A stretch of DNA of 64,000 nt from a virus (IMGVR_UViG_2756170246_000001:4509-68508); one strand, 5' to 3'; numbered from the stretch's first letter, positions 6,941 through 49,487 are shown. Made by a program: numbers and translations. Notes: generated from the sequence alone by a model not told the origin.

Positions 6941-6941
6941 G

Positions 6942-30715: not shown

Positions 30716-30818
30716 TACACGCTGACCTTTGATGACGGCTGTACCCCGCAGACGATGAGCTCGCGCAAGCGAGCGCTCTTCTCTTCTACGGTTCTTCAGA
30801 TAGCACTGACCTTGAGAA

Positions 30819-30832
30819 CGTAGAGCTCTACG
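30819..30832. promoter_or_regulatory. Perfect 14-bp palindrome CGTAGAGCTCTACG upstream of the late operon
   Basis: Direct reading; near-identical copy at 49343-49356. Confidence 0.55.
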
Positions 30833-33167: not shown

Positions 33168-33649
33168 CGCCGCCGCACCTCCACCGGGACGACGCGGCCG
33201 TCGACAACGACACCACCGAGCGCCTCGATCTGCAGGGCGGCTTCAGCGGCGGCGCGGATTTCGTGGAAGCGCCCGGCGCCAAGGATGTCCTCATCGGTGA
33301 CTAGCACCGGCCGGCTGAAGTGCAGCGCCATCTCGGCCGCCTTGATGGCGGCTGTTGCAGAGGCGAAGCGCTCCGGTTTTCCTTCAGCATCATCGAGGAG
33401 GACGTCAGGGGCGCCATCACGCCGATATGCGGCGCAGTAGTAGGTGCCGAAGCCGATCGCTTCGATGCGCAAAGCGGGTACGGGCGTGGGTACATTTTCA
33501 GGCGATTTGGGTACATTGTGGGTACGGCGAGCCGATGAGGGCTCGCCGAGCATTTCCTGCACTTCCACCGCAATCCCTTGCGCTACAAGGCGTTGCGTCG
33601 AATTCGTCGAAAACTGGTTGGGTACATCGGCGGGTACGCGCTCGCTCAC
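33164..33649 (-). CDS. Hypothetical phage protein
   Basis: Coupled ORF after the primase-helicase. Confidence 0.6.
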   Translation of the reverse strand: MSERVPADVPNQFSTNSTQRLVAQGIAVEVQEMLGEPSSARRTHNVPKSPENVPTPVPALRIEAIGFGTYYCAAYRRDGAPDVLLDDAEGKPERFASATAAIKAAEMALHFSRPVLVTDEDILGAGRFHEIRAAAEAALQIEALGGVVVDGRVVPVEVRRR

Positions 33650-35919
33650 AGCTGGATATCTCCATCGGCGAGTTCCTGCATCGCCGCCAAGGTCTGGGCG
33701 TCCTCCTGGCGTGGTGGTTCCATCTCGGTGCTGTTCTTCGCTTTGTAGCCCGGGATCGGTCTCCCGGTGAGCCAGATGAACCGATCGGCGCGCCCGATGA
33801 ACTTGCGGCCGTAGAAGGCTTCGCCGGCACGCTTCAGCGCCGACTTGATGCGCTCCCGCTGCTTCTTCTCGTCTTCGTCATCAACGAAGGACAGCTTCTC
33901 GAATTCGGAGCGCCAGTGCTTGTATTGCACCACGGACTTGATGCTGCGCGGCAGCTTGAGCAGATCGGGGGTGTCCTCGCCAAACCGCTCGAGCGCAAAC
34001 ATCAAAGCCTGCATCGCGATGTTCTGCTGGTCACTCAGTCGCTTGTCGTCGTTGGTCTCCGGGGTCTGCCCACCTGGTGGGGCGCATACCACCGATGTGA
34101 TCAGCTTGCCGTTTGGTCGGGTGCCGAGGACGACCTGCTTGAGGATGAAATCCCAGCCGTGACCACGTTCCCCATCCTTGTTCTTCTGGATGGTGGCGCG
34201 ATGGATCTGGCGGGTCAGCTGGGTTCCGTCTGCCCTGAAGGCGATATCGAGGCGTGGTGTGATCTCAAGCTCGATCGCGTTGTCGACGTTGGCGAACAGG
34301 CTGGAATGACCACGCGGGTTGTTGCCGTTCCTCGGCTTGTGATGGACCATCATCACGGTGCATCGGCATTCATCCCGGATCCGCTCCAGATTGGTGAGCA
34401 CCACGGACATGTCGGTGGAGGCGTTTTCGTTGGCGCCCGGCGTCGCCGTCGCCAGCGTATCGATGACGACGAGCTCGAGTGGGACCGCAAAGGTCTCCGA
34501 CCACGCCTTGATCTCGGCGATCAGCGCGTCGGTGCCCCGGCTGGTCTCGACATCCTGCTCCCCGGGCTTCGCGAAGAGATCGACACGGGCGGGCAACAAG
34601 ACGAAGTCGACGCGCTCCCCGGGCTCCATGTAGGTCTGTCGGTAGGCGCGGAGGCGCTGCTTCACGCCGATGCCTCCTTCGCCGGCCTGGTAGACGACGC
34701 CGCCGCGTCTCACCTCTTTGCCGTTGAATGTGGCGCCGCGATTCACCGACATCGCCATATCGATGGCCTCGAATGACTTCCCCGAACCGGATTCACCGTA
34801 GATCACGGCGACCTCATGTCGGGTCAGGATGTCCTCGATGAGATACTCGTGTTCCTGTCCGGCTTCGTCGAGGCGATCCCAGGTGACGGCGCCGAACCGG
34901 GACTTCGGTGGCTCCTTCGTCCATGGTCGGGCGTACCTATCTTCGATGTCGAACAGATCGGCGGGATCACCACCGGCCTGAACCCAATCCCAGATATCCC
35001 CCTTGGCGGGCACCTCGGGCCAGAACAGCCTGATATCCAGCAGCAGCACCGATGCCGCGATCCCGGTCATCTGCGAGCCGACGAGCTGCATATGCATCCG
35101 GCCGGCGTCGTCGTTGTCCGGGATCAGGATGAGATGGGCGCCGCGTAGGAGCTCGGAATAATATGGCGTCCACTTCTTGGCCCCGCCGGCGTTGCAGGTC
35201 GCCGGGATGCCGGCGGCCCATAGCGCATCTGCCTTCTTTTCCCCTTCGACGAGACGGACCGCCTGTCCCATGGCGATGGCTTCCGCGACCTCCGGCCAGC
35301 GGTACAGCGGCAGCTGCTCGATGCCATCGAAGGAACGACGCTCCTTCATCCCCCATTTGTCGAAGGTCTTCGAATCGTACCGGGTCCAGTTCTGGCCTGG
35401 CCCCTTGCGCATGTATTCGCCGTCGAGGAGGCCGTTGATCCAGACGTCCTTTTCCTCGGTGAAGCGGCGGCGCTGCGCGAAGGTCTTATCGATCTTGCCG
35501 TGCTTGTTCAGCCGCCAGGTCCCGTCGGGCTGCTTGAACTGCATCCTGGCGACCTGGAAGACGAGGCCGCCCTCGGCGTCGACATAATCGTAGGTGGCGA
35601 CGATCTCCTTCTTGCCGGGGCCCGCGTTCTGGTTTGAACCCGGGGCGGCTCCGCGACCGTCAGGGATGTCGAACCCGTTGTCCTTCAGCCAGTCCACGGC
35701 GCCGTCGTCGCCGCAGCCCGTCAGCTTGGCGACAAGCCAGAGGACACCGCCACCCTCGCTGTTCTCGTGATCGAAGGCGGTGTTCTTCTCGATGTCGACG
35801 GAGAGCGAGCCGTTGGTGCCGTAGCGGTGGTCGTTGCCCTTACTGTGGTGCGGGTTCGGCGCCCCCAGCAACATGCTGGCGACCTCCGGCATCAACGCTC
35901 CGAAATCAAATCCTGACAT
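33646..35919 (-). CDS. Primase-helicase (TOPRIM plus AAA_25/RepA-like SF4 helicase)
   Basis: LVEGEKKAD and IPDNDDAG TOPRIM motifs; GESGSGKS Walker A; VVIDTLA Walker B; VHHKPR...RGHSSL. Confidence 0.9.
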   Translation of the reverse strand: MSGFDFGALMPEVASMLLGAPNPHHSKGNDHRYGTNGSLSVDIEKNTAFDHENSEGGGVLWLVAKLTGCGDDGAVDWLKDNGFDIPDGRGAAPGSNQNAGPGKKEIVATYDYVDAEGGLVFQVARMQFKQPDGTWRLNKHGKIDKTFAQRRRFTEEKDVWINGLLDGEYMRKGPGQNWTRYDSKTFDKWGMKERRSFDGIEQLPLYRWPEVAEAIAMGQAVRLVEGEKKADALWAAGIPATCNAGGAKKWTPYYSELLRGAHLILIPDNDDAGRMHMQLVGSQMTGIAASVLLLDIRLFWPEVPAKGDIWDWVQAGGDPADLFDIEDRYARPWTKEPPKSRFGAVTWDRLDEAGQEHEYLIEDILTRHEVAVIYGESGSGKSFEAIDMAMSVNRGATFNGKEVRRGGVVYQAGEGGIGVKQRLRAYRQTYMEPGERVDFVLLPARVDLFAKPGEQDVETSRGTDALIAEIKAWSETFAVPLELVVIDTLATATPGANENASTDMSVVLTNLERIRDECRCTVMMVHHKPRNGNNPRGHSSLFANVDNAIELEITPRLDIAFRADGTQLTRQIHRATIQKNKDGERGHGWDFILKQVVLGTRPNGKLITSVVCAPPGGQTPETNDDKRLSDQQNIAMQALMFALERFGEDTPDLLKLPRSIKSVVQYKHWRSEFEKLSFVDDEDEKKQRERIKSALKRAGEAFYGRKFIGRADRFIWLTGRPIPGYKAKNSTEMEPPRQEDAQTLAAMQELADGDIQL

Positions 35920-37510: not shown

Positions 37511-39352
37511 TCAGGCGGCCTCTTCTTCGTCGATCTCGTCGAAGTCGGGATCGTGCTCCGTTGGCGGAGCCTCACTCAGCACCGGGATCGCGCCGGGCCC
37601 GGTATAGGTCGGCGCCCTCAACTCTGGAGGAAGCCAGCCGGTCTGCGGGACGTTGGCGAGGGCGAAGGCGGTGAGTTCCGCCTTCTTCATCTTCTCCGCC
37701 TTGCGAGCTTCATCGTCGTTGAGGGCTTCGCGGATCGCGGTGATGACGAACGGCTTCGAGGCACCACCGAAATAGTCGGCAGCATCGAACGCCTCCAGGA
37801 GCGCGCCGGTCAACTTCACGGGGTTAATGGCGGAGGCGAGCGGTGCCCCATCAGAGTTGAACGGAGGCCTGCCGATAGATGTCCGCTCCAAGTGCACGGC
37901 TTCAGCTGCGCAGCCGGCGGCCACCGTGAACAACTCCTGATCGGTCATGTCGGACAGGCGGGCGAAGACGCCAGCGAATGTCTCCTTGTCCTCGCCATGC
38001 TTCTTCGCGAAGCCTTCATGGTAGATGCGGACCGGGCTGTCCGCATGCAAACGCCTGTGCGTGATGAAACCTGCCAGCAAGGCAACCAGACCGACGCGAG
38101 GCTCCTGCTGCAAGGCCTGACGAACCGCAAGGGTGGCCTGTCCGCTCAACCGCTGGTGCAGCGCATTGGAGATCGTCGGCGGCCCCTTCTCCTTCGGTGC
38201 GCCAGATGATGATGCCGATGACGCCTTCTTCTCCGCCGCAGGCTTCACGACGCCGCGCACAATCTCGACATCACCGTGATAGCCGATCTCGACAACGGCA
38301 CCGGCCTTGGCGAATTGTTCGGACGTCCACTGCCGGCTTGCGATGTCGATCAAGAGCGCGCCGAGCTCACCTTTGGCGCCCTCCGTTCCTTTGGCCTCGG
38401 CCTTCTCCAGTTTCTTGATCCGCTTCTTTTCATCGGCTGTCGCCTTGCCGTCGCCGGGTTTCTCGCGCTTCCAGCTATGCTTCCAGTAATAGCCGAGGTC
38501 CTTGTCGGTGCTCACCCAGGACCAGCCTTCCGCCTTTAGCCCATCCAGTTTCGCCTGAATGGATTCCTGGGCGACTCGATGCATCAGCGCCTTATCGGCC
38601 ACGATGTGATCGTCGCCGAAGAGATCGGTGGTGACGGCGCCACCAGCAGCCTTGTAGGCGTCGAGCCCCGCCATCTTGACCCATTTCTTGACGTCGCCAT
38701 CGGCGCCACCGAAGGCCAGCATGACGGCGTGGCCGTGAAGATTGCGGTCCTTCGTCAGTTTAGTGAAGACGCGTTCCTGTTCCTCGATCGAGGGTGCCAA
38801 GGTAAAGGCTCGCACGGTCTCGATGGCACGACCGCGCTCATCGAGGGTGCCCTCGCGCCAAGCATCAAGGATCAGCGGCGACAGCCTGCCCAGAGCCAGC
38901 ATGCGGCGCACCCGCTTCGGCTCAATGCCGAACCGTGCCGCGATCTGGCTCTCATCGAGACCGCGATCGGCGAGATCGCGGAAGGTCTCGTAGGTGTCGG
39001 CCTCATGCTGTGGGAGACGGATCAGGTTTTCGGCCTGGCTGATCTCTCGGGCGGTATTGTCGTCGACGTCGCCGATCAGCACGGGGACCTCAAAGCCGGG
39101 CGTCACCGGTTCATCGGCGGCGGTATCACCATCGGTGGCGAGCTCGCAGAGGACGCGGTGGCGACGGCTGCCCGCTATGATCTTGTATCTCTTGGCTGCG
39201 GCATCCCATCGAACCCGGAGCGGCTGGACGATGCCGTGCGCGCGGATTGAGGCTTTCAGCTCATCAATACCTTCATCGCTGCGGGTGCGGCGGGCATTGA
39301 TGGCGTCATCGGGCTCGATGTCGGCGAGCGCGACCATTCTGATCGAGGTCAT
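37511..39352 (-). CDS. parB: ParB/RepB/Spo0J family protein
   Basis: NARRT...IDELKASIRAHGIVQPLRV...IIAGSRR; SQAENL.R; HTH IAARFG......RRMLALGRL. Confidence 0.85.
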   Translation of the reverse strand: MTSIRMVALADIEPDDAINARRTRSDEGIDELKASIRAHGIVQPLRVRWDAAAKRYKIIAGSRRHRVLCELATDGDTAADEPVTPGFEVPVLIGDVDDNTAREISQAENLIRLPQHEADTYETFRDLADRGLDESQIAARFGIEPKRVRRMLALGRLSPLILDAWREGTLDERGRAIETVRAFTLAPSIEEQERVFTKLTKDRNLHGHAVMLAFGGADGDVKKWVKMAGLDAYKAAGGAVTTDLFGDDHIVADKALMHRVAQESIQAKLDGLKAEGWSWVSTDKDLGYYWKHSWKREKPGDGKATADEKKRIKKLEKAEAKGTEGAKGELGALLIDIASRQWTSEQFAKAGAVVEIGYHGDVEIVRGVVKPAAEKKASSASSSGAPKEKGPPTISNALHQRLSGQATLAVRQALQQEPRVGLVALLAGFITHRRLHADSPVRIYHEGFAKKHGEDKETFAGVFARLSDMTDQELFTVAAGCAAEAVHLERTSIGRPPFNSDGAPLASAINPVKLTGALLEAFDAADYFGGASKPFVITAIREALNDDEARKAEKMKKAELTAFALANVPQTGWLPPELRAPTYTGPGAIPVLSEAPPTEHDPDFDEIDEEEAA

Positions 39353-40179
39353 GTCGGTGTCCTTTCTGTTTTGCGGTTGCGGCGCGCCGCGACGGCGTGC
39401 TCAAGCTTCGCCACCGCCATGATGGTGGGCTTCAACTCGGCCGGGGCGCGGTCATAGTCGCGGTTGGATTTGCCGTTCAGGCGAGGGAGAAGGCCGATCG
39501 GAACCGGCTCCCAATTCGACGGGTCGGTGTTCAACCTCTCGCCAAGGCACTTCAGCACCATGCCGTCCGGCACCGGGCCGTTGGCCTGCTCCCAAAGCCA
39601 GCGATGCTTGTGGACACGCCACGTCGATGCGCCAGTCCAAGGGTTGCGTCGGTCGGTGACGATCCAGATATAGCCGTCATCACCAAGCGATTCGTGGCCA
39701 GGGCCACGCCGGTTGTGAGGCTTCAACCCCTTTTTGAATTGGGTCACCGCACTATTCGGGTTGAACGGCAGCTTCTTGCCTTTGCTCCACGGTGCGACGC
39801 CTTTGTCGAACTGGCCGGTCCTGCCTGTCTTCCATCCCTCACGCTTGCGCAGAGCATGCAGCTTCGAAGGCGTCACATCGTGCCGGCCGAACGCCACCTG
39901 GAAGGCGCGGCACCACTCGTTGATTTCCATCGTGGAGTTGTCGCGCAGCCATCCGATCTCGGCGGCTGTATATTTCAGGCGACGGCCCTTGGTCCGGCCC
40001 TTTGTCGGACCGACCTTCCAGCCTAGCCGCTTGCGGAGGCCGTGAAGGTTTATTTGCAACACATCTGGCCGGCCGAACTCGGCTTGGAAGGCGCGATGAT
40101 AGTCGCTGATCACCATCATCCGGTTGGCTTCAAGCCATGCCATCTCGGCGGCGGTGTAGGAGATGCGGACGCCCCTCAT
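39349..40179 (-). CDS. HNH_3-type protein with duplicated N-terminal repeat
   Basis: Two YT.AE..WL..N repeats; GQFDKG..PW.KG; HRWLWEQANGPVPDG...LNTDPSNW. Confidence 0.75.
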   Translation of the reverse strand: MRGVRISYTAAEMAWLEANRMMVISDYHRAFQAEFGRPDVLQINLHGLRKRLGWKVGPTKGRTKGRRLKYTAAEIGWLRDNSTMEINEWCRAFQVAFGRHDVTPSKLHALRKREGWKTGRTGQFDKGVAPWSKGKKLPFNPNSAVTQFKKGLKPHNRRGPGHESLGDDGYIWIVTDRRNPWTGASTWRVHKHRWLWEQANGPVPDGMVLKCLGERLNTDPSNWEPVPIGLLPRLNGKSNRDYDRAPAELKPTIMAVAKLEHAVAARRNRKTERTPT

Positions 40180-40802
40180 GGTGCGCGCTCCCGAGCGGCA
40201 TGCTCCAGCTCGGCGATCGCAAGGATCGTGGGCTTGAGGGCGGATGGTGCGTGGTCATATCCGCGACCGTAGCGACCGCCGAGGCGCGGGAGCAGCGCGC
40301 GCGGTATCGCTCGCCAGTTCGACGGCTCCGTGTTGAGGCGATTGCCGTCCAGAGATTTGAGAACCGAGCCTTCTGGCAGCGAACCGTTCAACTCTTCCCA
40401 ACGGAGGATGTGCACCAGCCGCCAGCGCGATTGCAGTGGCATGCCGTCATGAATCTTGCGCTCGAGGTATCCATCCTTGTTGAAGCGCTCGGTCCCGATC
40501 GGCTTGTATTTGGCGGCCGCCGCGCCGGTCATGCTTCCCTTTTTGAACTGCGTCTCAACTGCTCTGCCACGCGCGGGGTGAGGTTTCCCCTTGTTGAACG
40601 GGACCGATCCCTTTTCGAAGCCGCCAGTGCGCCCGGTGTTCCATTTCCTGCGTGAGCAAAGAGCCTTGATGTCTTCAAGTCTGATGTCGGCGCGTCCGAA
40701 CTGAGCGACAAAAGCGGCGTGCAGCGCGCGACGGCTCATCGCCTGCCGCCACTCGATGAACGAAAGCTCCTCGTCGCTATATCGGATCTGCCGGCCTTTC
40801 AT
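40176..40802 (-). CDS. HNH_3-type protein, paralog of 39349..40179
   Basis: YSDEE..FI; GGFEKG..PFNKG; HILRWEELNG.LPEG..LKSLDGNRLNTEPSNW. Confidence 0.78.
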   Translation of the reverse strand: MKGRQIRYSDEELSFIEWRQAMSRRALHAAFVAQFGRADIRLEDIKALCSRRKWNTGRTGGFEKGSVPFNKGKPHPARGRAVETQFKKGSMTGAAAAKYKPIGTERFNKDGYLERKIHDGMPLQSRWRLVHILRWEELNGSLPEGSVLKSLDGNRLNTEPSNWRAIPRALLPRLGGRYGRGYDHAPSALKPTILAIAELEHAARERAP

Positions 40803-41050
40803 TTGCCCTCGATCTCCTTCGGCGCGGAGAGCATCGGGAGATCCTTGCGGAAGCGGTCGCCGTGGTTCGCCACCAGCGTTGCCGCCTGGATACCGAGGCG
40901 GGCGTTATCGACGATCATGTCGGCGACTTTGACCATGGCATCGGTGCGTTGGACCTCCGCTTCCAGCTGCTCCTTGGAGAGACCTTCTGCGGACAATCGC
41001 TCGATCTGCGCGAAGAGATGGTCGTTGAGGTCGGTGATGCGGTTCTTCAT
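40799..41050 (-). CDS. Conserved phage protein (DLNDHLFAQIERL type)
   Basis: MKNRITDLNDHLFAQIERL; in my recollection usually found upstream of HNH_3 genes. Confidence 0.7.
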   Translation of the reverse strand: MKNRITDLNDHLFAQIERLSAEGLSKEQLEAEVQRTDAMVKVADMIVDNARLGIQAATLVANHGDRFRKDLPMLSAPKEIEGK

Positions 41051-41238
41051 GTTTGAAATCTCCTGTCGGCTGTGGGATTTCGCCATTCCGTCGCACTCTC
41101 GACGTCGCGCATCGCTGCGAGATCGAGCGCGCCGGCCATGTCGTCAGCGGTGCGGCGGAGGAGTTCGGCGGCCCAGTCCGAGGTGCTGTCGATGAGCTCC
41201 TCGAGCTGGCGGCTGGCGGTGGAGAGTGAGCCCGTCAT
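41047..41238 (-). CDS. Hypothetical protein
   Basis: Coupled small ORF. Confidence 0.5.
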   Translation of the reverse strand: MTGSLSTASRQLEELIDSTSDWAAELLRRTADDMAGALDLAAMRDVESATEWRNPTADRRFQT

Positions 41239-41714
41239 TTGCCGCCACCCATGCCGGCGGCGTTGAGGCGATAGATTTCGACGGCCGCGGCGAGCTGCTT
41301 GCCTAGATCCTTGATCGCCTTAGCGGCGGGATCGCCGGTTAGCACCAGGCCGGCGTTGACTATCACATCATTGAGTGTGAAGGCCTGCTCAATTGTGGAC
41401 TGGCCCGCTTTGACGGCGACGATCGAGAAGCCGCGTTCTTCGACGCGGACCTCGCGCATGGTATCGGGCTGCGCGTAGACCTGGTTGGCAACGATGGTTG
41501 GTGACGTCGGCGCCGCAACCGGGGCGGGCTCGCCGGTCTGCACAAGCTGGACGCCGGCGTCGGACAGGATGCGCATGAGATGGTCGGCGCGGCGGCGAAC
41601 CTCTTCGGCGGCGGCATCGTCGACGCCGGCTAGATCGGACCACAATGGCCGAATCAATCCGTAGCGCTCACGGCGCATGCACTCGGCCAGGATGTCTCTG
41701 ATGGCGCGCGTCAT
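41235..41714 (-). CDS. Hypothetical phage protein
   Basis: Coupled ORF. Confidence 0.6.
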   Translation of the reverse strand: MTRAIRDILAECMRRERYGLIRPLWSDLAGVDDAAAEEVRRRADHLMRILSDAGVQLVQTGEPAPVAAPTSPTIVANQVYAQPDTMREVRVEERGFSIVAVKAGQSTIEQAFTLNDVIVNAGLVLTGDPAAKAIKDLGKQLAAAVEIYRLNAAGMGGGK

Positions 41715-41965
41715 GGCCGCCCCCGTGGAACCGACCGCCAGTGCTCGACCACGGTCTCATCCCGGTCCTGGCGGCCTTGCTTCGACCATGGGTGACGGCT
41801 GGTCCAGCCGCAGGGGCAGACCGCGAGGGCTTCACCAGTTTTCGGGTCGGTCTGCATCGAGACGACATGCGCCGCGAAGAGCGGCTCGCACCGCTCACAG
41901 AACGGGATACCGCGTTCGTCGTTGAAGCGGCGGCCGTCGCATACGACGCAATCGGGGAGGCTCAT
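41711..41965 (-). CDS. Small Cys-rich (CxxC) protein
   Basis: CVVC...CERC...CPCG. Confidence 0.55.
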   Translation of the reverse strand: MSLPDCVVCDGRRFNDERGIPFCERCEPLFAAHVVSMQTDPKTGEALAVCPCGWTSRHPWSKQGRQDRDETVVEHWRSVPRGRP

Positions 41966-42681
41966 CGCGGCACCCTCACGCGGTGCCGGAACACCGGCTC
42001 GAAGCCCTTCGGTTCGAACTGATAGCCGCGACCCCAGACGGTGCGGACGACATCGAGGCCATCATTCATCTCGAGCAGCTTGTGGCGGAGCTTGCAGACG
42101 AAGACGTCGATGATCTTCTGCTCCGGCTCGTCCTCACCGCCGTAAATGTGATCCATCAGGTCGGCTTTGGAAAACACCTTGCCGGGGTCGAGTGCCAGCG
42201 TGGTGAGCAGCTTCGCCTCCGCCGGTGCCAGCCGGCTCTTCCTGTCGCCGGCTTCGACAAGGCCGGTGTCGGCGTCATAGATGCAGCCCGGCATCTTGAT
42301 GAAGAGGTGGTCGTTGTAGGTGCCGCGCCGCACCAGCGCCTTCAGGCGCGCGATGAACTCGTCGCTATGGATCGGCGCGGGCTGGACATCATCGGCGCCG
42401 CAGCGGAGGATCGTTGAGGCGGCGAGGGAGGTGCACTCATCGGCGTCGAGCAGGACGAACAGGATGTTTTTCACGTCGGCGCGACGGAAGTCGCGGCAGG
42501 CCATTGCGGCGAAGCCGCTGTTCGCCGCCCTGATGACGCCGACCGCCTCGGGGTCACGGAAGAGCGCGCTGCACAAATCCTGCGGGAGTGGCTCGCCAGC
42601 GCTCTCGAAGCCGGCGTCCTCGGCCGCGGCGCGCAGCGCGCTCTCGATCTCGCGGGATGGGGCGGAGACGACGACACGCAT
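41962..42681 (-). CDS. ctrA: CtrA-like response regulator with degenerate receiver domain
   Basis: GADDVQPAPIHSDEFIARLKALVRR and HIYGGEDEPEQKIIDVFVCKLRHKL...TVWGRGY closely match CtrA as recalled; acidic pocket, phospho-Asp and Lys not conserved. Confidence 0.85.
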   Translation of the reverse strand: MRVVVSAPSREIESALRAAAEDAGFESAGEPLPQDLCSALFRDPEAVGVIRAANSGFAAMACRDFRRADVKNILFVLLDADECTSLAASTILRCGADDVQPAPIHSDEFIARLKALVRRGTYNDHLFIKMPGCIYDADTGLVEAGDRKSRLAPAEAKLLTTLALDPGKVFSKADLMDHIYGGEDEPEQKIIDVFVCKLRHKLLEMNDGLDVVRTVWGRGYQFEPKGFEPVFRHRVRVPR

Positions 42682-43088
42682 CAGGCCGCCCTCGCATTGA
42701 GCAACGCCCGCGCCTTCGCGCGGCATGCTTCATCCATCTCGAAGCCGAAGGCGTAGACCGTCGTGAAGTTCAATCCGTGCGGCCGAAGCTTCTTGCGGAT
42801 CCGCTTGATGTGGGACCGAATCGATTCTCCGATGTCGCTGATCGTATCAAGCTGGTCGAAGGTGTAGATCGCGGCCTGGATTTGGCCGTAGGTACCGACG
42901 CCGCAGTGGACGAGCAGGGCGAAGATCAGCGACTCCGCTTCGGTGAGATCGAAAGCCAACCGGGCGGTCTGGGCGATATCCAGACCACTGAGCTTGGCGA
43001 TCGTCGCTTTCAGCTGGCGGTTTTCCTCCTCCAGGATCTCGATGCGATCGCGGAGGCCGTGGTTCCCGAAGACCTCGTGCCTGCTCAT
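42681..43088 (-). CDS. Orphan OmpR/PhoB-type winged-helix protein with N-terminal coiled coil
   Basis: RIEILEEENRQLK; LTEAESLIFALL...IRSHIKRIRKKL...TTVYAFGF. Confidence 0.75.
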   Translation of the reverse strand: MSRHEVFGNHGLRDRIEILEEENRQLKATIAKLSGLDIAQTARLAFDLTEAESLIFALLVHCGVGTYGQIQAAIYTFDQLDTISDIGESIRSHIKRIRKKLRPHGLNFTTVYAFGFEMDEACRAKARALLNARAA

Positions 43089-43306
43089 GCGAATTCCTCC
43101 GGCCGGCGCAGGACAACAACGGTCTTGGCGGCGATACGACGGACGAACCGGCCGGCGATCAGCTGGTTCAGGCAGACGTTGTAGGTGTTGTGATCAAGCC
43201 CGAGATCGGCCAGCACCTCGACGCGACGTAGCGCAACGGGCTGGCCTACTGGCCCGAGGCCTGTGAAGTAAGAGAGGAGTTCGATGGCGCGCGCGGCGGT
43301 GCTCAT
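43085..43306 (-). CDS. Small winged-helix-like protein
   Basis: VLADLGLDHNTYNVCLNQLIAGRFV; TGATG-coupled. Confidence 0.5.
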   Translation of the reverse strand: MSTAARAIELLSYFTGLGPVGQPVALRRVEVLADLGLDHNTYNVCLNQLIAGRFVRRIAAKTVVVLRRPEEFA

Positions 43307-43677
43307 CAGAATCCCCGGTCTGGTACGTAGAGGCAGAACGAATGCGGCGACGACATATCGCCGGCCGGCTTGCACTCGTGGTAGAATTCATCCTTGGATC
43401 GGTGGATCCGGTGATCGCCGTAAGGGATCAGTTCGCCGGTCGAAAGCTTGTAGCCGGCCGGTGTCTCCTTCACGTCATTGGCCGGCGCCTGTTGGCAATC
43501 CATTCCGGAGCAGCATGCCGCATCGTATTGCCAGCCCGTTGGCGCGTCATGTGCGCGGGCACCACCGCACATCACGAAGATGATGAACGCGACCGAGGCA
43601 ACCAGCACCGCGATCGCCATGGCCAGGCTGAGCGAATGGTTGCCGCGCATCCGGCCGTTGGCTGGGCGCGCGCTCAT
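43306..43677 (-). CDS. Exported/membrane-anchored Cys-rich protein
   Basis: Hydrophobic N-terminus then AHDAPTGWQYDAACCSGMDC. Confidence 0.7.
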   Translation of the reverse strand: MSARPANGRMRGNHSLSLAMAIAVLVASVAFIIFVMCGGARAHDAPTGWQYDAACCSGMDCQQAPANDVKETPAGYKLSTGELIPYGDHRIHRSKDEFYHECKPAGDMSSPHSFCLYVPDRGF

Positions 43678-43976
43678 GCTGGCACCCGATCGACCGGCGC
43701 ATGCTGCTGGCGGAAGACGTCGAGCCGCTTCGGATCGAGTGGTAGGAAGGAGCGGGCGTCGAAGACCGGCTCAAATGGCCCGGTCGGGCTCGGCAGTTCC
43801 GAGTTGTGGATCTCGTCGAAGAGGAGGAATAAGTACGACTGCAGGAACACCCTCGACCGGATTCGGTAGACTTGCCCTTTGCGGGGTAGCGTCACCCCGT
43901 CCGGGTTTTGCCCAGGCATGTTGTACTGCCAATTCCCATCGACGCAGGCGACGAGTTGCCCGAGGTGGTAGTCCAT
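43674..43976 (-). CDS. Hypothetical phage protein
   Basis: MDYHLGQLVACVD...KGQVYRIR. Confidence 0.6.
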   Translation of the reverse strand: MDYHLGQLVACVDGNWQYNMPGQNPDGVTLPRKGQVYRIRSRVFLQSYLFLLFDEIHNSELPSPTGPFEPVFDARSFLPLDPKRLDVFRQQHAPVDRVPA

Positions 43977-43977
43977 C

Positions 43978-44601
43978 TCAGAACCTTTCCGGTACGGGTG
44001 CGGGTTGATATCGGCGGCTGAGTTCTTCGGCCTCGCGCTTGCGGCGCTCTGAGGCCACCCACAAATCGTCAACAGGTTGAGCGATTGCCGGCGCTGCGTA
44101 GAGGCAGGTGGCGTACCAGCCGGCCACGGCATCGGACCTGTCGAAGGAGAGGTCTTCGGCGTCGTGCGGTATCCAGCCGAGCGCGAGACACTTTTGAAGG
44201 ATCTGTGGTTTCGCGATCTCGCCCTTGAGGTTCCCGCGTCCGATGAACTTGGATCGGATTGTCGAGATCGGCATTTCAACCGGCCGATAGATGCGGTGGT
44301 GGCCGGCCATCGCGAATAGACAGGCGATCACGCCGTACTTCAGATGGCTGGTAGCGGCGTTCGTCTGGCGCTTGAGATGCGAATCCGGAACGGGCTGCTC
44401 GACGGCGAAGACATCGACGGGATGCTGCGCGATGAACTCCTGAAGCCAGCGCTGGGCACCGCAATAGATCATCTGGTGCGACGCCACCTTCGCTTTTTTG
44501 GCGAAGAAGTCGCTTCCCGATATCGGGATGCTACCAACAGGGCCGTAGCACCAACCGAAGCGGGAGCCGCCGTCGACGAAGAGGACGCGGGGCGGGCTCA
44601 T
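43978..44601 (-). CDS. RuvC-like Holliday junction resolvase
   Basis: VLFVDGG..FGW; VFAVEQP; DRSDAVA acidic motifs. Confidence 0.72.
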   Translation of the reverse strand: MSPPRVLFVDGGSRFGWCYGPVGSIPISGSDFFAKKAKVASHQMIYCGAQRWLQEFIAQHPVDVFAVEQPVPDSHLKRQTNAATSHLKYGVIACLFAMAGHHRIYRPVEMPISTIRSKFIGRGNLKGEIAKPQILQKCLALGWIPHDAEDLSFDRSDAVAGWYATCLYAAPAIAQPVDDLWVASERRKREAEELSRRYQPAPVPERF

Positions 44602-45266
44602 GCGCGGGCCTCGGCCCTTGGGCGCTGAGCCGGCGACACAATGGGGGAGGAAGCCTTCTCCAGCGACCAGCCGCGCGACAGCCGCTGGTGCACTATCTTG
44701 TAGGTGAGGCCTTTGCGCTCACAATATTCAGCTAGCGAGACGCGCTCGCCGTCGAGATCAACCTCGACCGTCGTGCGCCGATTCCTGGCCTGCTCTACAT
44801 CTAAAGCCCAATGGCAGTTACCGGGTTCATAGTTGCCGTCTTTGTCCTTGCGCTCGATCGAGTGCTCCGGTGTCGGCTTCGGCCCCATGTCTTCTACGAA
44901 GCATTGGAAGCCAGGCTTGCCGTCGGCGCCATTCAGCCAGCGGTCGCAGACTGTGATGCCGCGCCCTCCATACCGATTGTAGCGCTGAGCATTTGGATTG
45001 AAGCAGCGCTGCTGGATACCGCTCCACGTCCCGGCTAGCGGATGTGTCCCGCCGGTGTTCAGCCCGTGAGTGGTGTTGCCGCGACCCTTCCGTTGGTTGC
45101 ATCCGCATGAAATAGCGATGCCCTTGCGGAGCCCTTCGCCGCTGACCTGGCATTCTGCCCCGCATGCGCAGATACAATTCCAACGAAGATGCTTGTTGAC
45201 CATGCTCGCCGGGCCAAGCACGCGAAGCTGGCCGAACTGCTGACCTGATAAGTCGATGCGCTTCAT
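44598..45266 (-). CDS. Free-standing HNH homing-endonuclease-like protein
   Basis: DLSGQQFGQLRV...WNCICACG...SCGC...RC.NP....Y..YGGRGITVCDRW...F..DMG...SIER.D.DGNYEPGNC.WA. Confidence 0.85.
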   Translation of the reverse strand: MKRIDLSGQQFGQLRVLGPASMVNKHLRWNCICACGAECQVSGEGLRKGIAISCGCNQRKGRGNTTHGLNTGGTHPLAGTWSGIQQRCFNPNAQRYNRYGGRGITVCDRWLNGADGKPGFQCFVEDMGPKPTPEHSIERKDKDGNYEPGNCHWALDVEQARNRRTTVEVDLDGERVSLAEYCERKGLTYKIVHQRLSRGWSLEKASSPIVSPAQRPRAEARA

Positions 45267-45328
45267 CTGATCTGAACCACAAGGTGAGCCGGCCGCAATG
45301 GCGGCCACAGGTCTTTACGATTGGAAAT

Positions 45329-45829
45329 TCAGTGCTGCGCCTTGGCTGCAGCGTCCCATTCTTCTTGGCTGACGGAGCCCTTAACGGCGTCGACAACAGC
45401 GGTTGTCGTCTCGTCCTGGTCATCGTCGCTCTCTTCGCGGCTGACGGCCGCCGCACCCAGCCCAAAACTGGCAAAGTTGCTTCCCAGCGCCGTGCGAATG
45501 TCCGTAGCAAAGTCGCGATCATCCGATTCCAGACCGTCGACCTTGCCGTCGGCGCGCTCGATCATGGCTTCGGCTTTGCGCTTCAGCTTCTGGGCATCGA
45601 CGATCGCCCGGATGACGCCCTTGTTGACGCCATGCTTTTTGGCGTCGCCGAGGATCTCTTTCTGGTCGGCGTCGGTCGCCTTCTGGATCGCCCGCTTCTT
45701 CACCTTGAACTCGGCGTCGAGAACGCGGAGCTTCTCCTCGCGCTCCTGTTCGAGGCGGTCGAACTCCTCGACGAAGGAACCCGCCTCGGATGGGGATGCG
45801 CGGTTCGGGCGCTCATGCACTTTCGTCAT
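45329..45829 (-). CDS. GapR/DUF2312-like nucleoid-associated protein
   Basis: SFVEEFDRLEQE...KEILGDAKKHGVNKGVIRAIV...ALG resembles DUF2312 with an insertion. Confidence 0.6.
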   Translation of the reverse strand: MTKVHERPNRASPSEAGSFVEEFDRLEQEREEKLRVLDAEFKVKKRAIQKATDADQKEILGDAKKHGVNKGVIRAIVDAQKLKRKAEAMIERADGKVDGLESDDRDFATDIRTALGSNFASFGLGAAAVSREESDDDQDETTTAVVDAVKGSVSQEEWDAAAKAQH

Positions 45830-45851
45830 GCCGGTTTCCTTCTGGCTGGGG

Positions 45852-46460
45852 TCAGGCGTCCCTGGGGACGCTCAAACGATGGATGGGTGGTGCGGAGGCG
45901 AGGCGGGCGTGATACCGGCAGTAGGGTCCGGTCTCGGCGGCATCGTTCCCACAGAACCCGAAGTCCTCGGCCTGGGGGTCGCCGTTCGGCCATTTGCAGG
46001 TTTGTTCCGTCAGCTCGGTGAGCGCGAGCTTGCGCGATACCGGCACGATCGACAGATCGATAGCTGAGCGACGCGGCTCACCGGTGAGGAGGTGGGCGGG
46101 GAGACCGGGCGACTTCGCGCGCTGTTCCGCGCGAGCCTTGAAATCCGATGCCGGCGGATTGTTGGCGCCGCGCCATGAACTGGTCTGCTGGACGAGCTTG
46201 GAGGCGCGGACCGGCTTGGCCTTTGCTACCTTTGGTGCGGGGTCCGCGTCGGCCTTGCGCCGACCGGTCATACCCTTGCGTGGCTGGCCGTTGCCGAGAG
46301 AGAGCTTTTTACGATGGACGCGGCCTATTACCGCCGACCGGCTGGCATTCAGGAATTTCTTGGCGATCGCCGAGGCGGTGAGACCTTCCTCGCAATAGCC
46401 GACGAGCAGGCGGTCGAGTTCAACCCGTGGGATCGTCGTCCAGTCTGGAAGGATCGTCAC
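45852..46460 (-). CDS. gcrA: GcrA family cell-cycle regulator
   Basis: EGLTASAIA...SRSAVIGRVHR N-domain; LTELTEQTCKWPNGDP...FGFCG...GPYCRYHARLA C-domain. Confidence 0.9.
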   Translation of the reverse strand: MTILPDWTTIPRVELDRLLVGYCEEGLTASAIAKKFLNASRSAVIGRVHRKKLSLGNGQPRKGMTGRRKADADPAPKVAKAKPVRASKLVQQTSSWRGANNPPASDFKARAEQRAKSPGLPAHLLTGEPRRSAIDLSIVPVSRKLALTELTEQTCKWPNGDPQAEDFGFCGNDAAETGPYCRYHARLASAPPIHRLSVPRDA

Positions 46461-46969
46461 CGGGCGACTCCGCCATCGGCTTTGATTCCGGCGCGATCCA
46501 GTGCGCCAGCGAGTCGCCCCAATTCGCGACGTTCTTCGCCATCCAGAGCCGCGTCCTCAGCGGCAATAAGCGCTGCCAGACGGTTAGCCGTGGCGGCGAG
46601 TTCGAGCCTTGCACGTCGTGCCTCCTCCAGCGCCTCGATCTCGAGCAGCGCCTTCATCTCGTACCATTCGACGCGGCGAGCGTCATCGTTGTAGATCGCC
46701 CGGACACGACGAGGTGTCACCTTGCGGGCAAATGTCGTCGGGACGCGCTTGCACAGCTCCGAGTAGATCTTGCCGTACTGCAGCCGAGCCGGGGTCTTCG
46801 GGAGCAGCAGCTCGCCGACGGCGCGGATGACATCGCGTGGTGCCCGGTCGTCGGGAGAAAAGGCGATGGCTACTCTAGACATTCCGCCACCGCCCACCGT
46901 CGGCCCGCTGTGGGCCTTGGTAAGATTTTCCAAGCTCGCGCTCGAAGTTTCCAAGTCCGCGTTTCGCAT
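46457..46969 (-). CDS. CII-position regulatory protein (hypothetical)
   Basis: Follows cro and the tR1-like hairpin; RRVRAIY..DARRVEWYEM. Confidence 0.55.
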   Translation of the reverse strand: MRNADLETSSASLENLTKAHSGPTVGGGGMSRVAIAFSPDDRAPRDVIRAVGELLLPKTPARLQYGKIYSELCKRVPTTFARKVTPRRVRAIYNDDARRVEWYEMKALLEIEALEEARRARLELAATANRLAALIAAEDAALDGEERRELGRLAGALDRAGIKADGGVAR

Positions 46970-47139
46970 GGCTGCTATCTCCATTTCCAGCGACGGAACA
47001 CGGAGATGCGAGCAATGCCCGGGCGGAGACAAAAAAGCGGTGGCCCATGCCAAACAGGACAGACAGGGCCACCAAGCCGGCGTGGGTTGGGGTGCGCCGG
47101 CAATCGCGCGACAGGGCGACACGCGAAATCAAATCAAGG

Positions 47140-47815: not shown

Positions 47816-48057
47816 TCGGTGGTGACCTCCACCACGGGGCGCGAGATACCTTCAGGCCATTCCGCGCCGACAGGCCAGTTCGTCGAGAACCACCAGACCG
47901 CGGCGTTGTAGCGTTCGGTGGTGAGATCGCCTCCGGCGCGGAGCGCGTCGATCTTCTTGCCATCGTTGAAGACCCGGCTGCTCACAGTTTTATCCTCGAC
48001 GCCAGTTGCGGCGCGGTAGGCATCGACGATGGAGAGCAGGTGCTTAATTTCGAACAT
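47812..48057 (-). CDS. cro: Cro-like repressor
   Basis: 81 aa, divergent from cI; LLSIVDAY..ATG...TVSSRVF..G pattern of alphaproteobacterial Cro-like proteins. Confidence 0.72.
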   Translation of the reverse strand: MFEIKHLLSIVDAYRAATGVEDKTVSSRVFNDGKKIDALRAGGDLTTERYNAAVWWFSTNWPVGAEWPEGISRPVVEVTTE

Positions 48058-48068
48058 GCAATATGGAT

Positions 48069-48140
48069 CGGTTAAAAAACCGGCATTGTCAATGGTTATC
48101 TTACCGAATGCAAAAGCGAGGCTGCTCGGTCAAAATACCG
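48069..48140. promoter_or_regulatory. OR-like region: three 14-bp operators (48069-82, 48093-106, 48127-140) and TTGACA -35 (48092-48087, minus strand)
   Basis: CGGTTAAAAAACCG, TGGTTATCTTACCG, CGGTCAAAATACCG between cro and cI. Confidence 0.8.
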
Positions 48141-48142
48141 GC

Positions 48143-48502
48143 ATGCTAAAAGACATACTCGCAAGGATAGATCGGAGGTTGCAGGAACTCGGCTTGAACG
48201 AGTCCCAGGCTGCGAAGATGGCTGGGCTCGGCGTCGACGGTATCCGCAATACCCGCCGCAGAATCGGGAGTGGCAAGGAGGATGCCGGGGTGTCCAGCAC
48301 CACACTGGCAAAGCTGGCGCCGGTGCTGCAGACCACAGCGGGTTGGCTTATCGACGGTTCTGGCCCCGAGCAGATGCCGAACGAAAAGCTCAGGATGGTG
48401 CTGATCGAGGCATCTGCGTTCCCGACCGAGATCCAGGAGCGCATAGTGGATTTCGCAAACTTCCAGATGAGTAATCAGCAGCGGCGAGAAACCGCTGCGT
48501 AG
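48143..48502 (+). CDS. cI: CI-like XRE repressor, short (no S24 peptidase domain)
   Basis: IDRRLQELGLNESQAAKMAGL...TLAKLAPVLQTTAGWLIDGSG; ATG 2 nt after operator 3, no SD. Confidence 0.75.
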   Translation: MLKDILARIDRRLQELGLNESQAAKMAGLGVDGIRNTRRRIGSGKEDAGVSSTTLAKLAPVLQTTAGWLIDGSGPEQMPNEKLRMVLIEASAFPTEIQERIVDFANFQMSNQQRRETAA

Positions 48503-49301: not shown

Positions 49302-49342
49302 GCTCTCACGCGCTCGGTTGGAGATTATATCTAAACCTTAGA

Positions 49343-49356
49343 CGTAGAACTCTACG
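49343..49356. promoter_or_regulatory. Near-palindrome CGTAGAACTCTACG
   Basis: One mismatch to 30819-30832, same flanks (A...AT); half-site CTCTACGATTC repeated at 49420. Confidence 0.55.
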
Positions 49357-49487
49357 ATTCACCGTTTCCGTGTCCCGCAGCGATTCAGTGTGATTGCTGG
49401 TGCAATCACTGTGTCGGCGCTCTACGATTCAAGGTTATCAATTCCGCGCGAGGCTGCGTTCCGAGCGATGACGGATTAAAAGAAATC

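What the first reader, a model, noticed from the sequence alone, without database searches (positions are those of the whole stretch)
41962..46460. Cell-cycle hijack suite: GcrA, GapR-like, orphan wHTH and pseudo-CtrA in one early operon
Seen: within 4.5 kb of one cro-controlled operon are GcrA (45852-46460), a GapR/DUF2312-like gene directly downstream, and a coupled pair of an orphan OmpR-type wHTH and the pseudo-CtrA. No DNA methyltransferase is visible in the window. Established: GcrA (sigma70 cofactor reading GANTC methylation), CtrA and GapR (binds overtwisted DNA, stimulates topoisomerases) are core alphaproteobacterial cell-cycle factors, and GcrA and GapR homologues occur singly in phages. 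Inference: a coordinated system that reprogrammes the host cell cycle into a phage-replication state. This is the best candidate for an undescribed system here.
Basis: partly seen in the sequence, partly recalled or inferred. Interest (0 to 1): 0.85.

Follow-up and report, generated by a model that had tools for sequence, protein, structure and literature searches.

The report
Phage copies of host cell-cycle regulators
A 69-kb Mesorhizobium prophage carries, side by side in its early operon, its own diverged versions of three host cell-cycle and chromosome proteins: GcrA, a distant GapR relative, and a CtrA that can no longer be phosphorylated. The trio is fixed in one phage lineage and similar pairs recur in other phages, but what it does to the host is untested.

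Summary

- **GcrA (45852-46460):** a clear family member (Pfam E 5e-30) with both domains.
- **Pseudo-CtrA (true start 42681):** closest to host CtrA. It keeps a receiver fold but has lost every phospho-acceptor residue.
- **Orphan (42681-43088):** a coiled coil plus an OmpR-type winged helix.
- **GapR-like (45329-45829):** below Pfam's cut-off, but profile comparison, an intermediate orthologue and language-model neighbours all point to a long, phage-specific GapR branch.
- **Methyltransferase:** none in the window.

Co-occurrence holds for three of the four genes. GcrA, GapR-like and pseudo-CtrA are syntenic in about 20 related Mesorhizobium/Aminobacter prophages. Tight GcrA/GapR/CtrA-type pairs also recur on other viral contigs. 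The orphan is sporadic (4 of about 22 loci).

Each gene class is already known singly in phages. No paper in the searched library holds the terms GcrA, GapR and phage together. This scan has noted the module before on other DNA, including this same lineage (e1-5900154).

Host cell-cycle take-over remains inference; regulation of the phage's own genes is a live rival. Two extras:
- The prophage's 16-bp att core is a perfect CtrA box, and the phage has none inside.
- Seven other phage CtrA homologues carry Glu at the phospho-acceptor position.

The parts
46457..47122 (-). Conserved gene of unknown function directly upstream of gcrA. Its stop overlaps the GcrA GTG start (GTGA). The true start is probably internal to this ORF.
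   Evidence: phrog_26665, E 3.9e-7. Present upstream of GcrA in most lineage loci. Junction read.
45852..46460 (-). Phage GcrA homologue, 202 aa, with an N-terminal DNA-binding domain and a C-terminal sigma70-binding domain.
   Evidence: PF07750 E 4.7e-30. 41% identical to host GcrA. Aligns to 7ye1/5yix in both domains. The CKWP..FCG..PYC..H motif is conserved (A3).
45329..45829 (-). Long GapR-like protein, 166 aa. It has a GapR-like helix-turn-helix core with a 19-residue insertion in helix 1, plus an 80-residue C-terminal extension with a conserved ALG..F..LG motif and an acidic tail.
   Evidence: Pfam GapR E 0.043. hhalign 81-84%. AF2 helices 13-65, 70-98 and 102-115. ESM Atlas neighbours. 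Family of 52 clusters, the named ones from Mesorhizobium/Aminobacter.
44598..45308 (-). HNH endonuclease inserted between the GapR-like and RuvC genes. It is not part of the conserved module.
   Evidence: phrog_374 E 3.3e-60. No counterpart in related loci apart from one 29-aa fragment.
43978..44601 (-). RuvC-like Holliday junction resolvase, a conserved member of the block.
   Evidence: phrog_159 E 5.7e-6. 47-49% identity in 5 of 6 related loci.
42681..43088 (-). Orphan regulator, 135 aa: an N-terminal coiled coil followed by an OmpR-type winged helix, with no receiver. It is translationally coupled to both neighbours.
   Evidence: Junctions ATGA and TGATG. Orthologues only in L064, L065 and L296.
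41962..42681 (-). CtrA-derived atypical response regulator, 239 aa from the Met at 42681. It combines a pseudo-receiver with a CtrA-type winged helix.
   Evidence: 33% identical to host CtrA over the full length, E 7e-35. DNA-binding domain 43% identical to CtrA against 32% or less for other host regulators. Acid pocket, D51, S/T and K all replaced. AF2 gives a (beta-alpha)5 fold at pLDDT 86. Foldseek matches full-length OmpR-family regulators at 1e-13.
41235..41714 (-). Conserved gene of unknown function that follows the pseudo-CtrA in the lineage.
   Evidence: Present in 15 of the CtrA-anchored viral loci and in 6 of 7 genus loci. No Pfam, PHROG or Atlas match.

Best explanation
This is a conserved early-operon module of a lineage of roughly 60-70-kb temperate phages of Mesorhizobium and Aminobacter. 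It supplies phage-made versions of three host regulators that no longer depend on host signalling. The likely effect is that phage transcription and replication stop depending on the host's cell-cycle phase.

Shown:
- The genes lie in one co-directional, translationally coupled operon. It starts beside the immunity region and runs on to the replicative helicase and then the late genes.
- The GcrA copy keeps both the DNA-binding domain and the sigma70-binding domain.
- The CtrA copy keeps the receiver fold and a recognition helix almost identical to CtrA's, but has no phospho-acceptor.
- The orphan replaces the receiver with a coiled coil.
- The GapR-like protein keeps the GapR core motifs.

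Inferred:
- On induction or infection, phage GcrA binds host sigma70-RNA polymerase and drives GcrA-type (GANTC-methylated) promoters.
- The GapR-like protein binds DNA and helps replication and transcription cope with overtwisting.
- The pseudo-CtrA, and where present the coiled-coil wHTH, occupy CtrA-type sites without needing the CckA-ChpT phosphorelay, either mimicking or displacing CtrA~P.
- The phage itself has no CtrA box except the one in its att core. The pseudo-CtrA's targets are therefore most likely host CtrA boxes and/or the att site.
For: Gene identities.

Operon structure: overlapping or closely spaced junctions. No terminator signal above chance. An AAA_25 helicase (33646-35919) lies further down the same strand, followed by the terminase.

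Conservation:
- GcrA, GapR-like, RuvC, pseudo-CtrA and p41235 are syntenic in L016 and 14 IMG/VR loci, with pseudo-CtrA identity falling from 90% to 29%.
- In 7 of 200 other species' representative genomes of the host genus (Mesorhizobium by its nearest named relatives) the GapR-like gene is found, always next to GcrA, and next to pseudo-CtrA in 6.
- L068 carries GcrA, a canonical GapR and a CtrA-like gene, so a true GapR can fill the GapR-like role.

Recurrence outside the lineage, confirmed by Pfam in a sample:
- GcrA followed by a stand-alone wHTH 330-520 bp downstream: L145, L146, L158, L159.
- GcrA next to a full response regulator: L084, L086.
- GapR next to a CtrA-like gene at 140-630 bp: L083, L087, L104, L122-124, L286.
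- GapR next to GcrA at 0-100 bp: L225, L233, L257, L288.

In the host genome gcrA, ctrA and gapR are on different contigs or far apart, so this clustering is not host synteny.

Loss of phospho-control is a general trend. Of 80 viral CtrA-like genes, 11 keep Asp at the acceptor position and 7 have Glu there; D51E is the phosphomimetic allele (PMC6363796). Others have A, N or G, the lineage is fully degenerate, and about 37 are wHTH-only.

There is no TTAA-N7-TTAA in the 64-kb window or in 23 related 20-kb loci, while the host has 30, two of which are the att cores.
Against:
- The specificity of the pseudo-CtrA is inferred from helix similarity only and may have drifted.
- The absence of CtrA boxes in the phage fits host targeting, but it fits an altered motif equally well.
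- GANTC density in the prophage (1.23 per kb) matches the host's (1.38 per kb), so there is no special enrichment.
- The GapR-like protein fails the Pfam threshold, found no GapR in a PDB sequence search and has no Foldseek match.
- Co-occurrence is confounded by common descent and mosaicism: single-linkage clustering on shared genes merged 52 of 69 multi-gene loci (68 plus the window).
- The universe of alphaproteobacterial phage contigs is unknown, so no proper enrichment statistic could be computed.
- The orphan wHTH is dispensable in most relatives.
Confidence: 0.5

Rival explanations
1. The proteins are regulators of the phage's own programme, not of the host. The CtrA-type proteins would act as middle or late gene activators, or as att-site and recombination accessory factors. 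GcrA would drive methylation-sensitive phage promoters, and the GapR-like protein would coat or organise replicating phage DNA.
For: - The block sits between the immunity region and the replication and late genes, where lambdoid phages keep their regulators.
- In roseophage RDJL-Phi1 a receiver-less CtrA homologue lies between gafA and rcc01866, two genes known as regulators of gene transfer agents (PMC6363796; annotated as ctrA).
- GANTC sites cluster just upstream of phage gcrA (three in 50 bp at 46466-46515). At least one lies within 150 bp upstream in 14 of 23 loci, where a uniform density predicts about 1 in 5.
- Three more GANTC sites lie in the 49.3-kb intergenic region inside a repeated TCTACGATTC motif.
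- The only CtrA box associated with the phage is its att core.
Against: - No CtrA box lies upstream of the late operon or anywhere else in the phage or its relatives.
- No GafA-like partner was detected next to the pseudo-CtrA; p41235 has no detectable relatives outside the lineage.
- The sigma70-binding domain of phage GcrA is nearly identical to the host's, so host promoters cannot be excluded as targets.
Confidence: 0.3
2. The genes are independently acquired accessory genes, picked up from hosts and kept in the gene-dense early region. Their proximity would reflect where such cargo accumulates rather than joint function.
For: - GapR alone is on at least 544 IMG/VR stretches, GcrA on 124 or more and CtrA-like genes on 182. 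Most GcrA- or GapR-anchored loci carry only that one gene (61 of 80 and 65 of 80).
- The orphan wHTH and the HNH gene come and go within the lineage.
- An earlier scan note on a Methylobacterium prophage reached this conclusion for its own set (e1-5352536; not checked here).
Against: - The order GcrA then GapR-like is invariant across the lineage while protein identities fall to about 30-40%.
- Same-strand adjacency of different pairs recurs on contigs that share no other lineage marker.
- In GapR-anchored loci a CtrA-like gene is present in 3 of 10 with GcrA but in 5 of 70 without.
Confidence: 0.13
3. The module acts in the lysogen rather than in lytic growth. It would provide lysogenic conversion or superinfection exclusion, for example by repressing CtrA-dependent pili or flagella that serve as phage receptors.
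For: - CtrA controls pili and flagella in Alphaproteobacteria, and several phages are tuned to CtrA (PMC9437464).
- A constitutive CtrA-type binder could change receptor expression.
Against: - The genes lie in the operon that diverges from the repressor gene, together with RuvC, ParB-like and helicase genes. They should therefore be off in the lysogen.
- No separate promoter was found above chance.
Confidence: 0.07

Closest known systems
GcrA homologue gp222 of Caulobacter phage phiCbK and its relatives (Gill et al. 2012, PMC3556154)
   Same: Both are phage-encoded members of PF07750. The phiCbK protein was proposed to switch the host to a replication-competent state. The phiCbK group is the only set of cultured phages hit by this GcrA.
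   Different: phiCbK is a virulent 200-kb phage, and its hit covers only the C-terminal 55 residues at 47-49% identity. Here the gene is in a temperate phage, is full length, and is fixed next to GapR-like and CtrA-derived genes.
Receiver-less CtrA homologue of roseophage RDJL-Phi1/Phi2 and of Rhodobacter phages (Huang 2011; Fogg 2019, PMC6363796)
   Same: Both are phage-borne CtrA-type winged-helix proteins uncoupled from phosphorylation (42-49% identity in the DNA-binding domain).
   Different: Those phage proteins have lost the receiver altogether and sit between gafA and rcc01866. This protein keeps a folded but dead receiver, and its neighbours are GcrA, GapR-like and RuvC genes.
Atypical, phosphorylation-independent OmpR-family response regulators (HP1043, RitR, GlnR)
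   Same: They share the two-domain architecture, with a receiver fold that lacks a working phospho-acceptor. 2hqr, 5u8k and 8hih are among the Foldseek matches.
   Different: Those are cellular regulators unrelated to CtrA in their DNA-binding domains. This protein is specifically CtrA-derived and phage-encoded.
GapR (DUF2312, PF10073) of Caulobacter, and GapR in Erythrobacter phage R34L1 (PMC12185513)
   Same: The core motifs are shared: an FIERIERLE-like helix and the AK-x-G-x-x-K..R turn. The topology is a long helix, a turn and a second helix.
   Different: This protein is twice as long, with a 19-residue insertion in helix 1 and an 80-residue tail. It falls below the Pfam cut-off. Canonical GapR genes are far more common on viral contigs, at 544 or more stretches.
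CtrA-mediated 'lytic deferment' of phiCbK-like, Brevundimonas and Mesorhizobium phages (Mascolo et al. 2022, PMC9437464)
   Same: Both are alphaproteobacterial phages whose development is tied to the CtrA system.
   Different: Those phages carry clusters of CtrA boxes and listen to host CtrA. This phage has no internal CtrA box and instead brings its own CtrA-type protein, which is the inverse strategy.

Membership tests
GcrA (PF07750) | Whole-protein score above the Pfam gathering cut-off | tested here: met
   105.5 bits against a cut-off of 26.9, E 4.7e-30, profile positions 10-147 of 155.
GcrA (PF07750) | Both the N-terminal DNA-binding domain and the C-terminal sigma70-interacting domain are present | tested here: met
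   Two aligned stretches to 7ye1 chain G (residues 24-94 and 150-192) and a match to 5yix. Conserved columns in A3.
GcrA (PF07750) | Binds sigma70 region 2 and prefers m6A-GANTC promoters | not testable with these tools
   Needs biochemistry.
CtrA (OmpR-family cell-cycle response regulator) | OmpR-type winged-helix output domain that is closest to CtrA among the host's regulators | tested here: met
   Trans_reg_C E 4e-18. The best non-self hit in the genome is CtrA (43% identity, E 1.8e-28), against 32% or less for 20 other regulators. The recognition helix KIIDVFVCKLRHKL compares with KIIDVFICKLRKKL in CtrA.
CtrA (OmpR-family cell-cycle response regulator) | Functional receiver: acidic pocket, phospho-acceptor Asp51, conserved Ser/Thr and Lys | tested here: not met
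   All four positions are replaced in the window protein and in 13 lineage homologues. There is no Response_reg hit at E 0.01 or better. It is therefore not a CtrA orthologue.
CtrA (OmpR-family cell-cycle response regulator) | Receiver fold, (beta-alpha)5 | tested here: met
   The AF2 model (pLDDT 86) has five strand-helix units in residues 2-119. Foldseek aligns about 228 columns to full-length PrrA, KdpE and MtrA at 1e-13.
CtrA (OmpR-family cell-cycle response regulator) | Binds TTAA-N7-TTAA | not testable with these tools
   Only sites could be counted: 0 in the window, 30 in the genome, 2 of them at the att cores.
GapR (PF10073, DUF2312) | Score above the Pfam gathering cut-off | tested here: not met
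   13.9 bits against a cut-off of 22.6, E 0.043. Not detected by the family search of the genome.
GapR (PF10073, DUF2312) | Homology detectable by profile-profile comparison | tested here: inconclusive
   hhalign 80.7% and 84.5%, E 1e-5 and 7e-6, over 54-55 columns with a 19-residue gap. Orthologue L301 hits a GapR profile at 2.9e-5. Atlas neighbours carry PF10073 on 14-36% of members. No GapR appeared in the PDB sequence search and there was no Foldseek match.
GapR (PF10073, DUF2312) | Small protein (about 90 aa) that forms a tetramer encircling overtwisted DNA | not testable with these tools
OmpR/PhoB-type winged helix (PF00486), for the orphan | Effector-domain homology | tested here: met
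   The single sequence is below the cut-off (16.3 against 26.2 bits). The family profile hits BaeR (5e-4), AdeR (7e-4) and DrrD across the whole domain, and the pseudo-CtrA family at 88%. Member P0065 carries PF00486.

The most novel reading that the evidence does not exclude
Alphaproteobacterial temperate phages have assembled a dedicated take-over module from captured host genes.

- A CtrA stripped of phospho-control would compete with CtrA~P at host CtrA boxes. It occurs in several forms: dead receiver, Glu at the acceptor position, or the receiver swapped for a coiled coil.
- A phage GcrA would switch on the S-phase programme.
- A GapR-type protein would keep replication forks moving.
- Together these would lock the cell in a non-dividing, replicating state. 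CtrA depletion produces that state in Sinorhizobium (PMC4433202).
- The same CtrA-type protein would read the CtrA box in the att core, tying integration or excision to the cell cycle.
Probability: 0.2. Interest if true: 0.8.

Novelty: new variant of a known kind. Interest (0 to 1): 0.55.

Why it matters
Phages are known to borrow single host regulators. A conserved, co-transcribed set of three homologues of the alphaproteobacterial cell-cycle and nucleoid circuit would be a natural experiment in rewiring that circuit.

- It offers ready-made phosphorylation-independent CtrA variants, a second GcrA and a long GapR form for testing how each factor works. They come from rhizobia, where CtrA loss drives the endoreduplication seen in bacteroids.
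- The recurrent Asp-to-Glu change and the receiver decay in phage CtrA copies suggest a general route by which viruses escape host signalling.
- If the genes only serve phage transcription, the value is more modest: a new class of phage early regulators derived from CtrA and GcrA.

Tried and rejected
- **Sequence and fold searches for the GapR-like protein.** A family-profile search of PDB sequences found no GapR. Foldseek on its AF2 model found nothing at E below 1. Extended all-helical models are poor queries, so this is not counted against homology.
- **Order-level search.** 400 genomes searched with the GapR-like protein gave 0 hits outside the own genome. It showed only that the family is narrow.
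- **Single-protein scan of genome contigs with the pseudo-CtrA.** This returned just one true relative, M. ventifaucium, plus unrelated Firmicutes regulators.
- **Clustering loci by shared ORFs to count independent lineages.** Single linkage at 3 or more shared stop-to-stop ORFs merged 52 of 69 loci (68 plus the window). The threshold was too loose for mosaic, high-GC phages, so no lineage count is claimed.
- **Exact search of the 16-bp att core in viral contigs.** It gave 15 hits, none related to this phage. That is chance level for a 16-mer.
- **Other 'mimics' noted elsewhere in the scan.** Searches for DnaA domain IV and MucR found none in this window.
- **Unpublished genome.** The GapR profile used contained one sequence from the unpublished genome G440.

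Full report
**Setting**

The window is G000:C1:187283-251282 of a 7.45-Mb genome. The nearest named relatives of its prophage genes are in Mesorhizobium and Aminobacter.

The finding lies on the minus strand, in a run of overlapping or closely spaced genes. This run starts beside a divergently oriented cI-like repressor gene (48029-48502; phrog_8/phrog_4). In order it contains:
- an 81-aa protein of unknown function (phrog_7669);
- a T5orf172/HTH_3 protein;
- the four genes of the finding;
- two HNH_3 genes and a 613-aa ParB_N protein;
- an HslV-like peptidase;
- an AAA_25 helicase at 33646-35919, after which the terminase and late genes follow.

It is therefore the early/replication operon. 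A true Cro was not identified.

**The four genes**

*GcrA (45852-46460).* It is a clear family member: PF07750, E 4.7e-30. It is 41% identical to the host's own GcrA, which lies on another contig. It aligns to solved Caulobacter GcrA in both the DNA-binding domain and the sigma70-binding domain. Its GTG start overlaps the stop of the upstream conserved gene and follows a GGAG.

*Pseudo-CtrA.* The true start is the Met at 42681, whose ATG overlaps the orphan's TGA as TGATG.
- It aligns end to end with host CtrA (L007:1231-1926): 33% identity, E 7e-35.
- In the DNA-binding half, CtrA is by far its best match in the genome: 43% identity, against 32% or less for other regulators.
- The recognition helix is nearly identical to CtrA's.
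- The acidic pocket, Asp51, the conserved Ser/Thr and the Lys are all replaced.
- Pfam finds no receiver in it or in 12 of its 14 aligned homologues.
- The AlphaFold model (pLDDT 86) still has a five-unit strand-helix receiver fold.
- Foldseek aligns both domains to full-length OmpR-family regulators at about 1e-13, including the phosphorylation-independent HP1043 and RitR.

It is thus a CtrA-derived atypical response regulator, not a CtrA orthologue.

*Orphan (42681-43088).* The single sequence is below Pfam's Trans_reg_C cut-off. Its family has 15 clusters, and those with an organism name are from Mesorhizobium; one already carries PF00486. As a profile, the family hits the effector domains of BaeR, AdeR and DrrD across their full length, and hits coiled-coil peptides at its N-terminus. 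It matches the pseudo-CtrA family at 88%. A coiled coil in place of a receiver suggests constitutive dimerisation; that is inference.

*GapR-like protein (45329-45829).* This is the weakest call. Against it:
- Pfam gives 13.9 bits against a cut-off of 22.6.
- A search of the genome with the GapR family sees only the host GapR.
- PDB sequence and fold searches were blank.

For it:
- Family-to-family hhalign gives 81-84%, E about 1e-5. It aligns the FIERIERLE-type helix and the AK-G-K-R turn, with a 19-residue insertion.
- The model is a long helix, a turn and two further helices.
- One orthologue (L301) reaches a GapR profile at 2.9e-5.
- The nearest language-model clusters are viral and carry GapR_DNA-bd on 14-36% of members.
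- In L068 a canonical GapR accompanies GcrA and a CtrA-like gene.

I read it as a long, phage-specific branch of the GapR family, with moderate confidence.

*Methyltransferases.* None of the three main DNA methyltransferase families has a match in the window. The host's two N6_N4 enzymes are on contig 2.

**Co-occurrence**

The tightest set is the lineage itself.
- L016 (M. ventifaucium) and 14 IMG/VR loci carry the order: upstream gene, GcrA, GapR-like, RuvC, small genes, pseudo-CtrA, p41235, and usually ParB.
- Across these loci pseudo-CtrA identity falls from 90% to 29% and GcrA identity falls to about 30%.
- In a sample of 200 other species' representative genomes of the host genus, the GapR-like gene occurs in 7. 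GcrA is adjacent in all 7, the pseudo-CtrA follows in 6 (the seventh copy is truncated), and the orphan is present in 1.
- In all, the orphan was seen in 4 lineage loci: the window, L064, L065 and L296.

Three anchored scans of IMG/VR gave the wider picture. Each kept the best 80 loci with 10-kb flanks.

| Anchor | Stretches found | Other classes within 10 kb |
|---|---|---|
| CtrA-like | 182 | GcrA in 21 loci, 15 of them the trio loci; true GapR in 14 |
| GcrA | 124 | CtrA-like in 10, of which 6 are trio loci; GapR or GapR-like in 15 |
| GapR | at least 544 | GcrA in 10; CtrA-like in 8 |

In the GapR-anchored set, a CtrA-like gene is present in 3 of 10 loci with GcrA, against 5 of 70 without.

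Outside the lineage the pairs are often immediate, same-strand neighbours:
- GcrA then a stand-alone wHTH: L145, L146, L158, L159.
- GcrA then a full response regulator: L084, L086.
- GapR then a CtrA-like gene: L083, L087, L104, L122-124, L286.
- GapR then GcrA: L225, L233, L257, L288.

Pfam confirmed every pair sampled. In the host these genes are unlinked.

So the association is real at the level of gene neighbourhoods. However, these phages are mosaic relatives, and I could not define the background universe. I therefore give no p-value.

**Receiver states in phage CtrA homologues**

The 80 viral genes were aligned to host CtrA.
- 11 keep Asp at the acceptor position.
- 7 have Glu there within an otherwise intact receiver: L068, L070, L074, L078, L082, L090, L092. 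These are 47-69% identical to one another.
- Several have Ala, Asn or Gly.
- The Mesorhizobium lineage is fully degenerate.
- About 37 are wHTH-only, as in roseophage RDJL-Phi1.

D51E is the standard phosphomimetic allele (PMC6363796). Escape from the phosphorelay therefore looks like a recurring outcome.

**Targets**

There is no TTAA-N7-TTAA in the window or in 23 related 20-kb loci. The host genome has 30. Two of those are an identical 16-mer, TTAACCCGCCCTTAAA, at C1:182384 and C1:251791.

These two copies are the prophage ends:
- Inside lie a ligase and a GH108 lysozyme on the left. On the right lie a helicase, an integrase (phrog_1, E 3e-16) and a T5orf172 gene.
- Outside lie a host ORF on one side and a PBP1A gene 75 bp away on the other.
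- In other genomes of the host genus, homology to the right flank starts exactly at the core. In G471 and G488 the two flanks are contiguous.

So the 69.4-kb phage integrates into a conserved CtrA box. This is compatible with the pseudo-CtrA acting on host CtrA boxes, on the att site, or on both. It may also be coincidence.

GANTC is about 4.6-fold rarer than in shuffles (79 sites against 366), but its density equals the host's. Small clusters lie just upstream of phage gcrA and in the 49.3-kb intergenic region.

**What is known**

- GcrA in phiCbK-like phages: PMC3556154.
- Receiver-less CtrA in roseophages: PMC6363796.
- GapR in an Erythrobacter phage: PMC12185513.
- Phages that read host CtrA through CtrA boxes: PMC9437464.

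No paper in the searched library holds the terms GcrA, GapR and phage together. This scan has noted similar sets in at least six other genomes. One follow-up report covers this same Aminobacter/Mesorhizobium lineage (e1-5900154) and agrees with what I found independently. Those notes are not counted as evidence.

**Verdict**

The fourth gene is optional. The host cell-cycle mechanism remains an inference, with a serious phage-internal rival.

This is a new variant of a known kind: phage-borne homologues of host regulators. Interest is moderate to high because it is directly testable.

Noticed in passing
L302:2885-2900 and L303:4792-4807 (G000:C1:182384 and C1:251791; about 4.9 kb before and 0.5 kb after the window): The prophage is bounded by a 16-bp direct repeat, TTAACCCGCCCTTAAA, 69.4 kb apart. 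The repeat is a perfect CtrA box, one of only 30 in the genome, and lies 75 bp upstream of a PBP1A gene. An integrase (phrog_1) sits 500 bp inside the right end. Two other genomes of the host genus (G471, G488) show the flanks contiguous, and homology to the right flank starts exactly at the core.
   Followed up: yes
L068, L070, L074, L078, L082, L090, L092 (CtrA-like genes near position 10000 of each locus): Seven diverse viral CtrA homologues (47-69% identical to one another) have Glu in place of the phospho-acceptor Asp, in otherwise intact receivers. This is the classical phosphomimetic change. Others have Ala, Asn or Gly.
   Followed up: partly
window 46466-46515 and 49356-49430: GANTC is 4.6-fold under-represented in the window, at the same density as the host. 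Three sites cluster within 50 bp just upstream of the phage gcrA start, and three more lie in the 49.3-kb intergenic region. At least one GANTC lies within 150 bp upstream of gcrA in 14 of 23 related loci.
   Followed up: partly
window 49335-49430: An intergenic, operator-like motif. The palindrome CGTAGAACTCTACG is followed by GATTC, and a second CTCTACGATTCA lies 70 bp downstream, so GANTC sites are embedded in the repeat. A related CGTAGAGCTCTACG lies at about 30818-30831, upstream of the late genes.
   Followed up: no
window 44598-45308, 40176-40802, 39349-40179, 30392-30715: There are four HNH-type endonuclease genes in one prophage. The one at 44598-45308 is an insertion between the GapR-like and RuvC genes and is absent from relatives.
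   Followed up: partly
window 40799-41086: A 95-aa protein matches phrog_2044, annotated 'RNA polymerase beta subunit' (E 5e-23). It is conserved at 70-93% identity in relatives. It may be a small RNA-polymerase-binding protein.
   Followed up: no
It had no counterpart in the six close relatives checked by tblastn.
   Followed up: no
L068 (IMGVR_UViG_3300023211_000126), about 5716-10486: A metagenomic phage carries a canonical GapR, a GcrA and a CtrA homologue with Glu at the acceptor site within 5 kb. It looks like an intermediate form of the module.
   Followed up: partly
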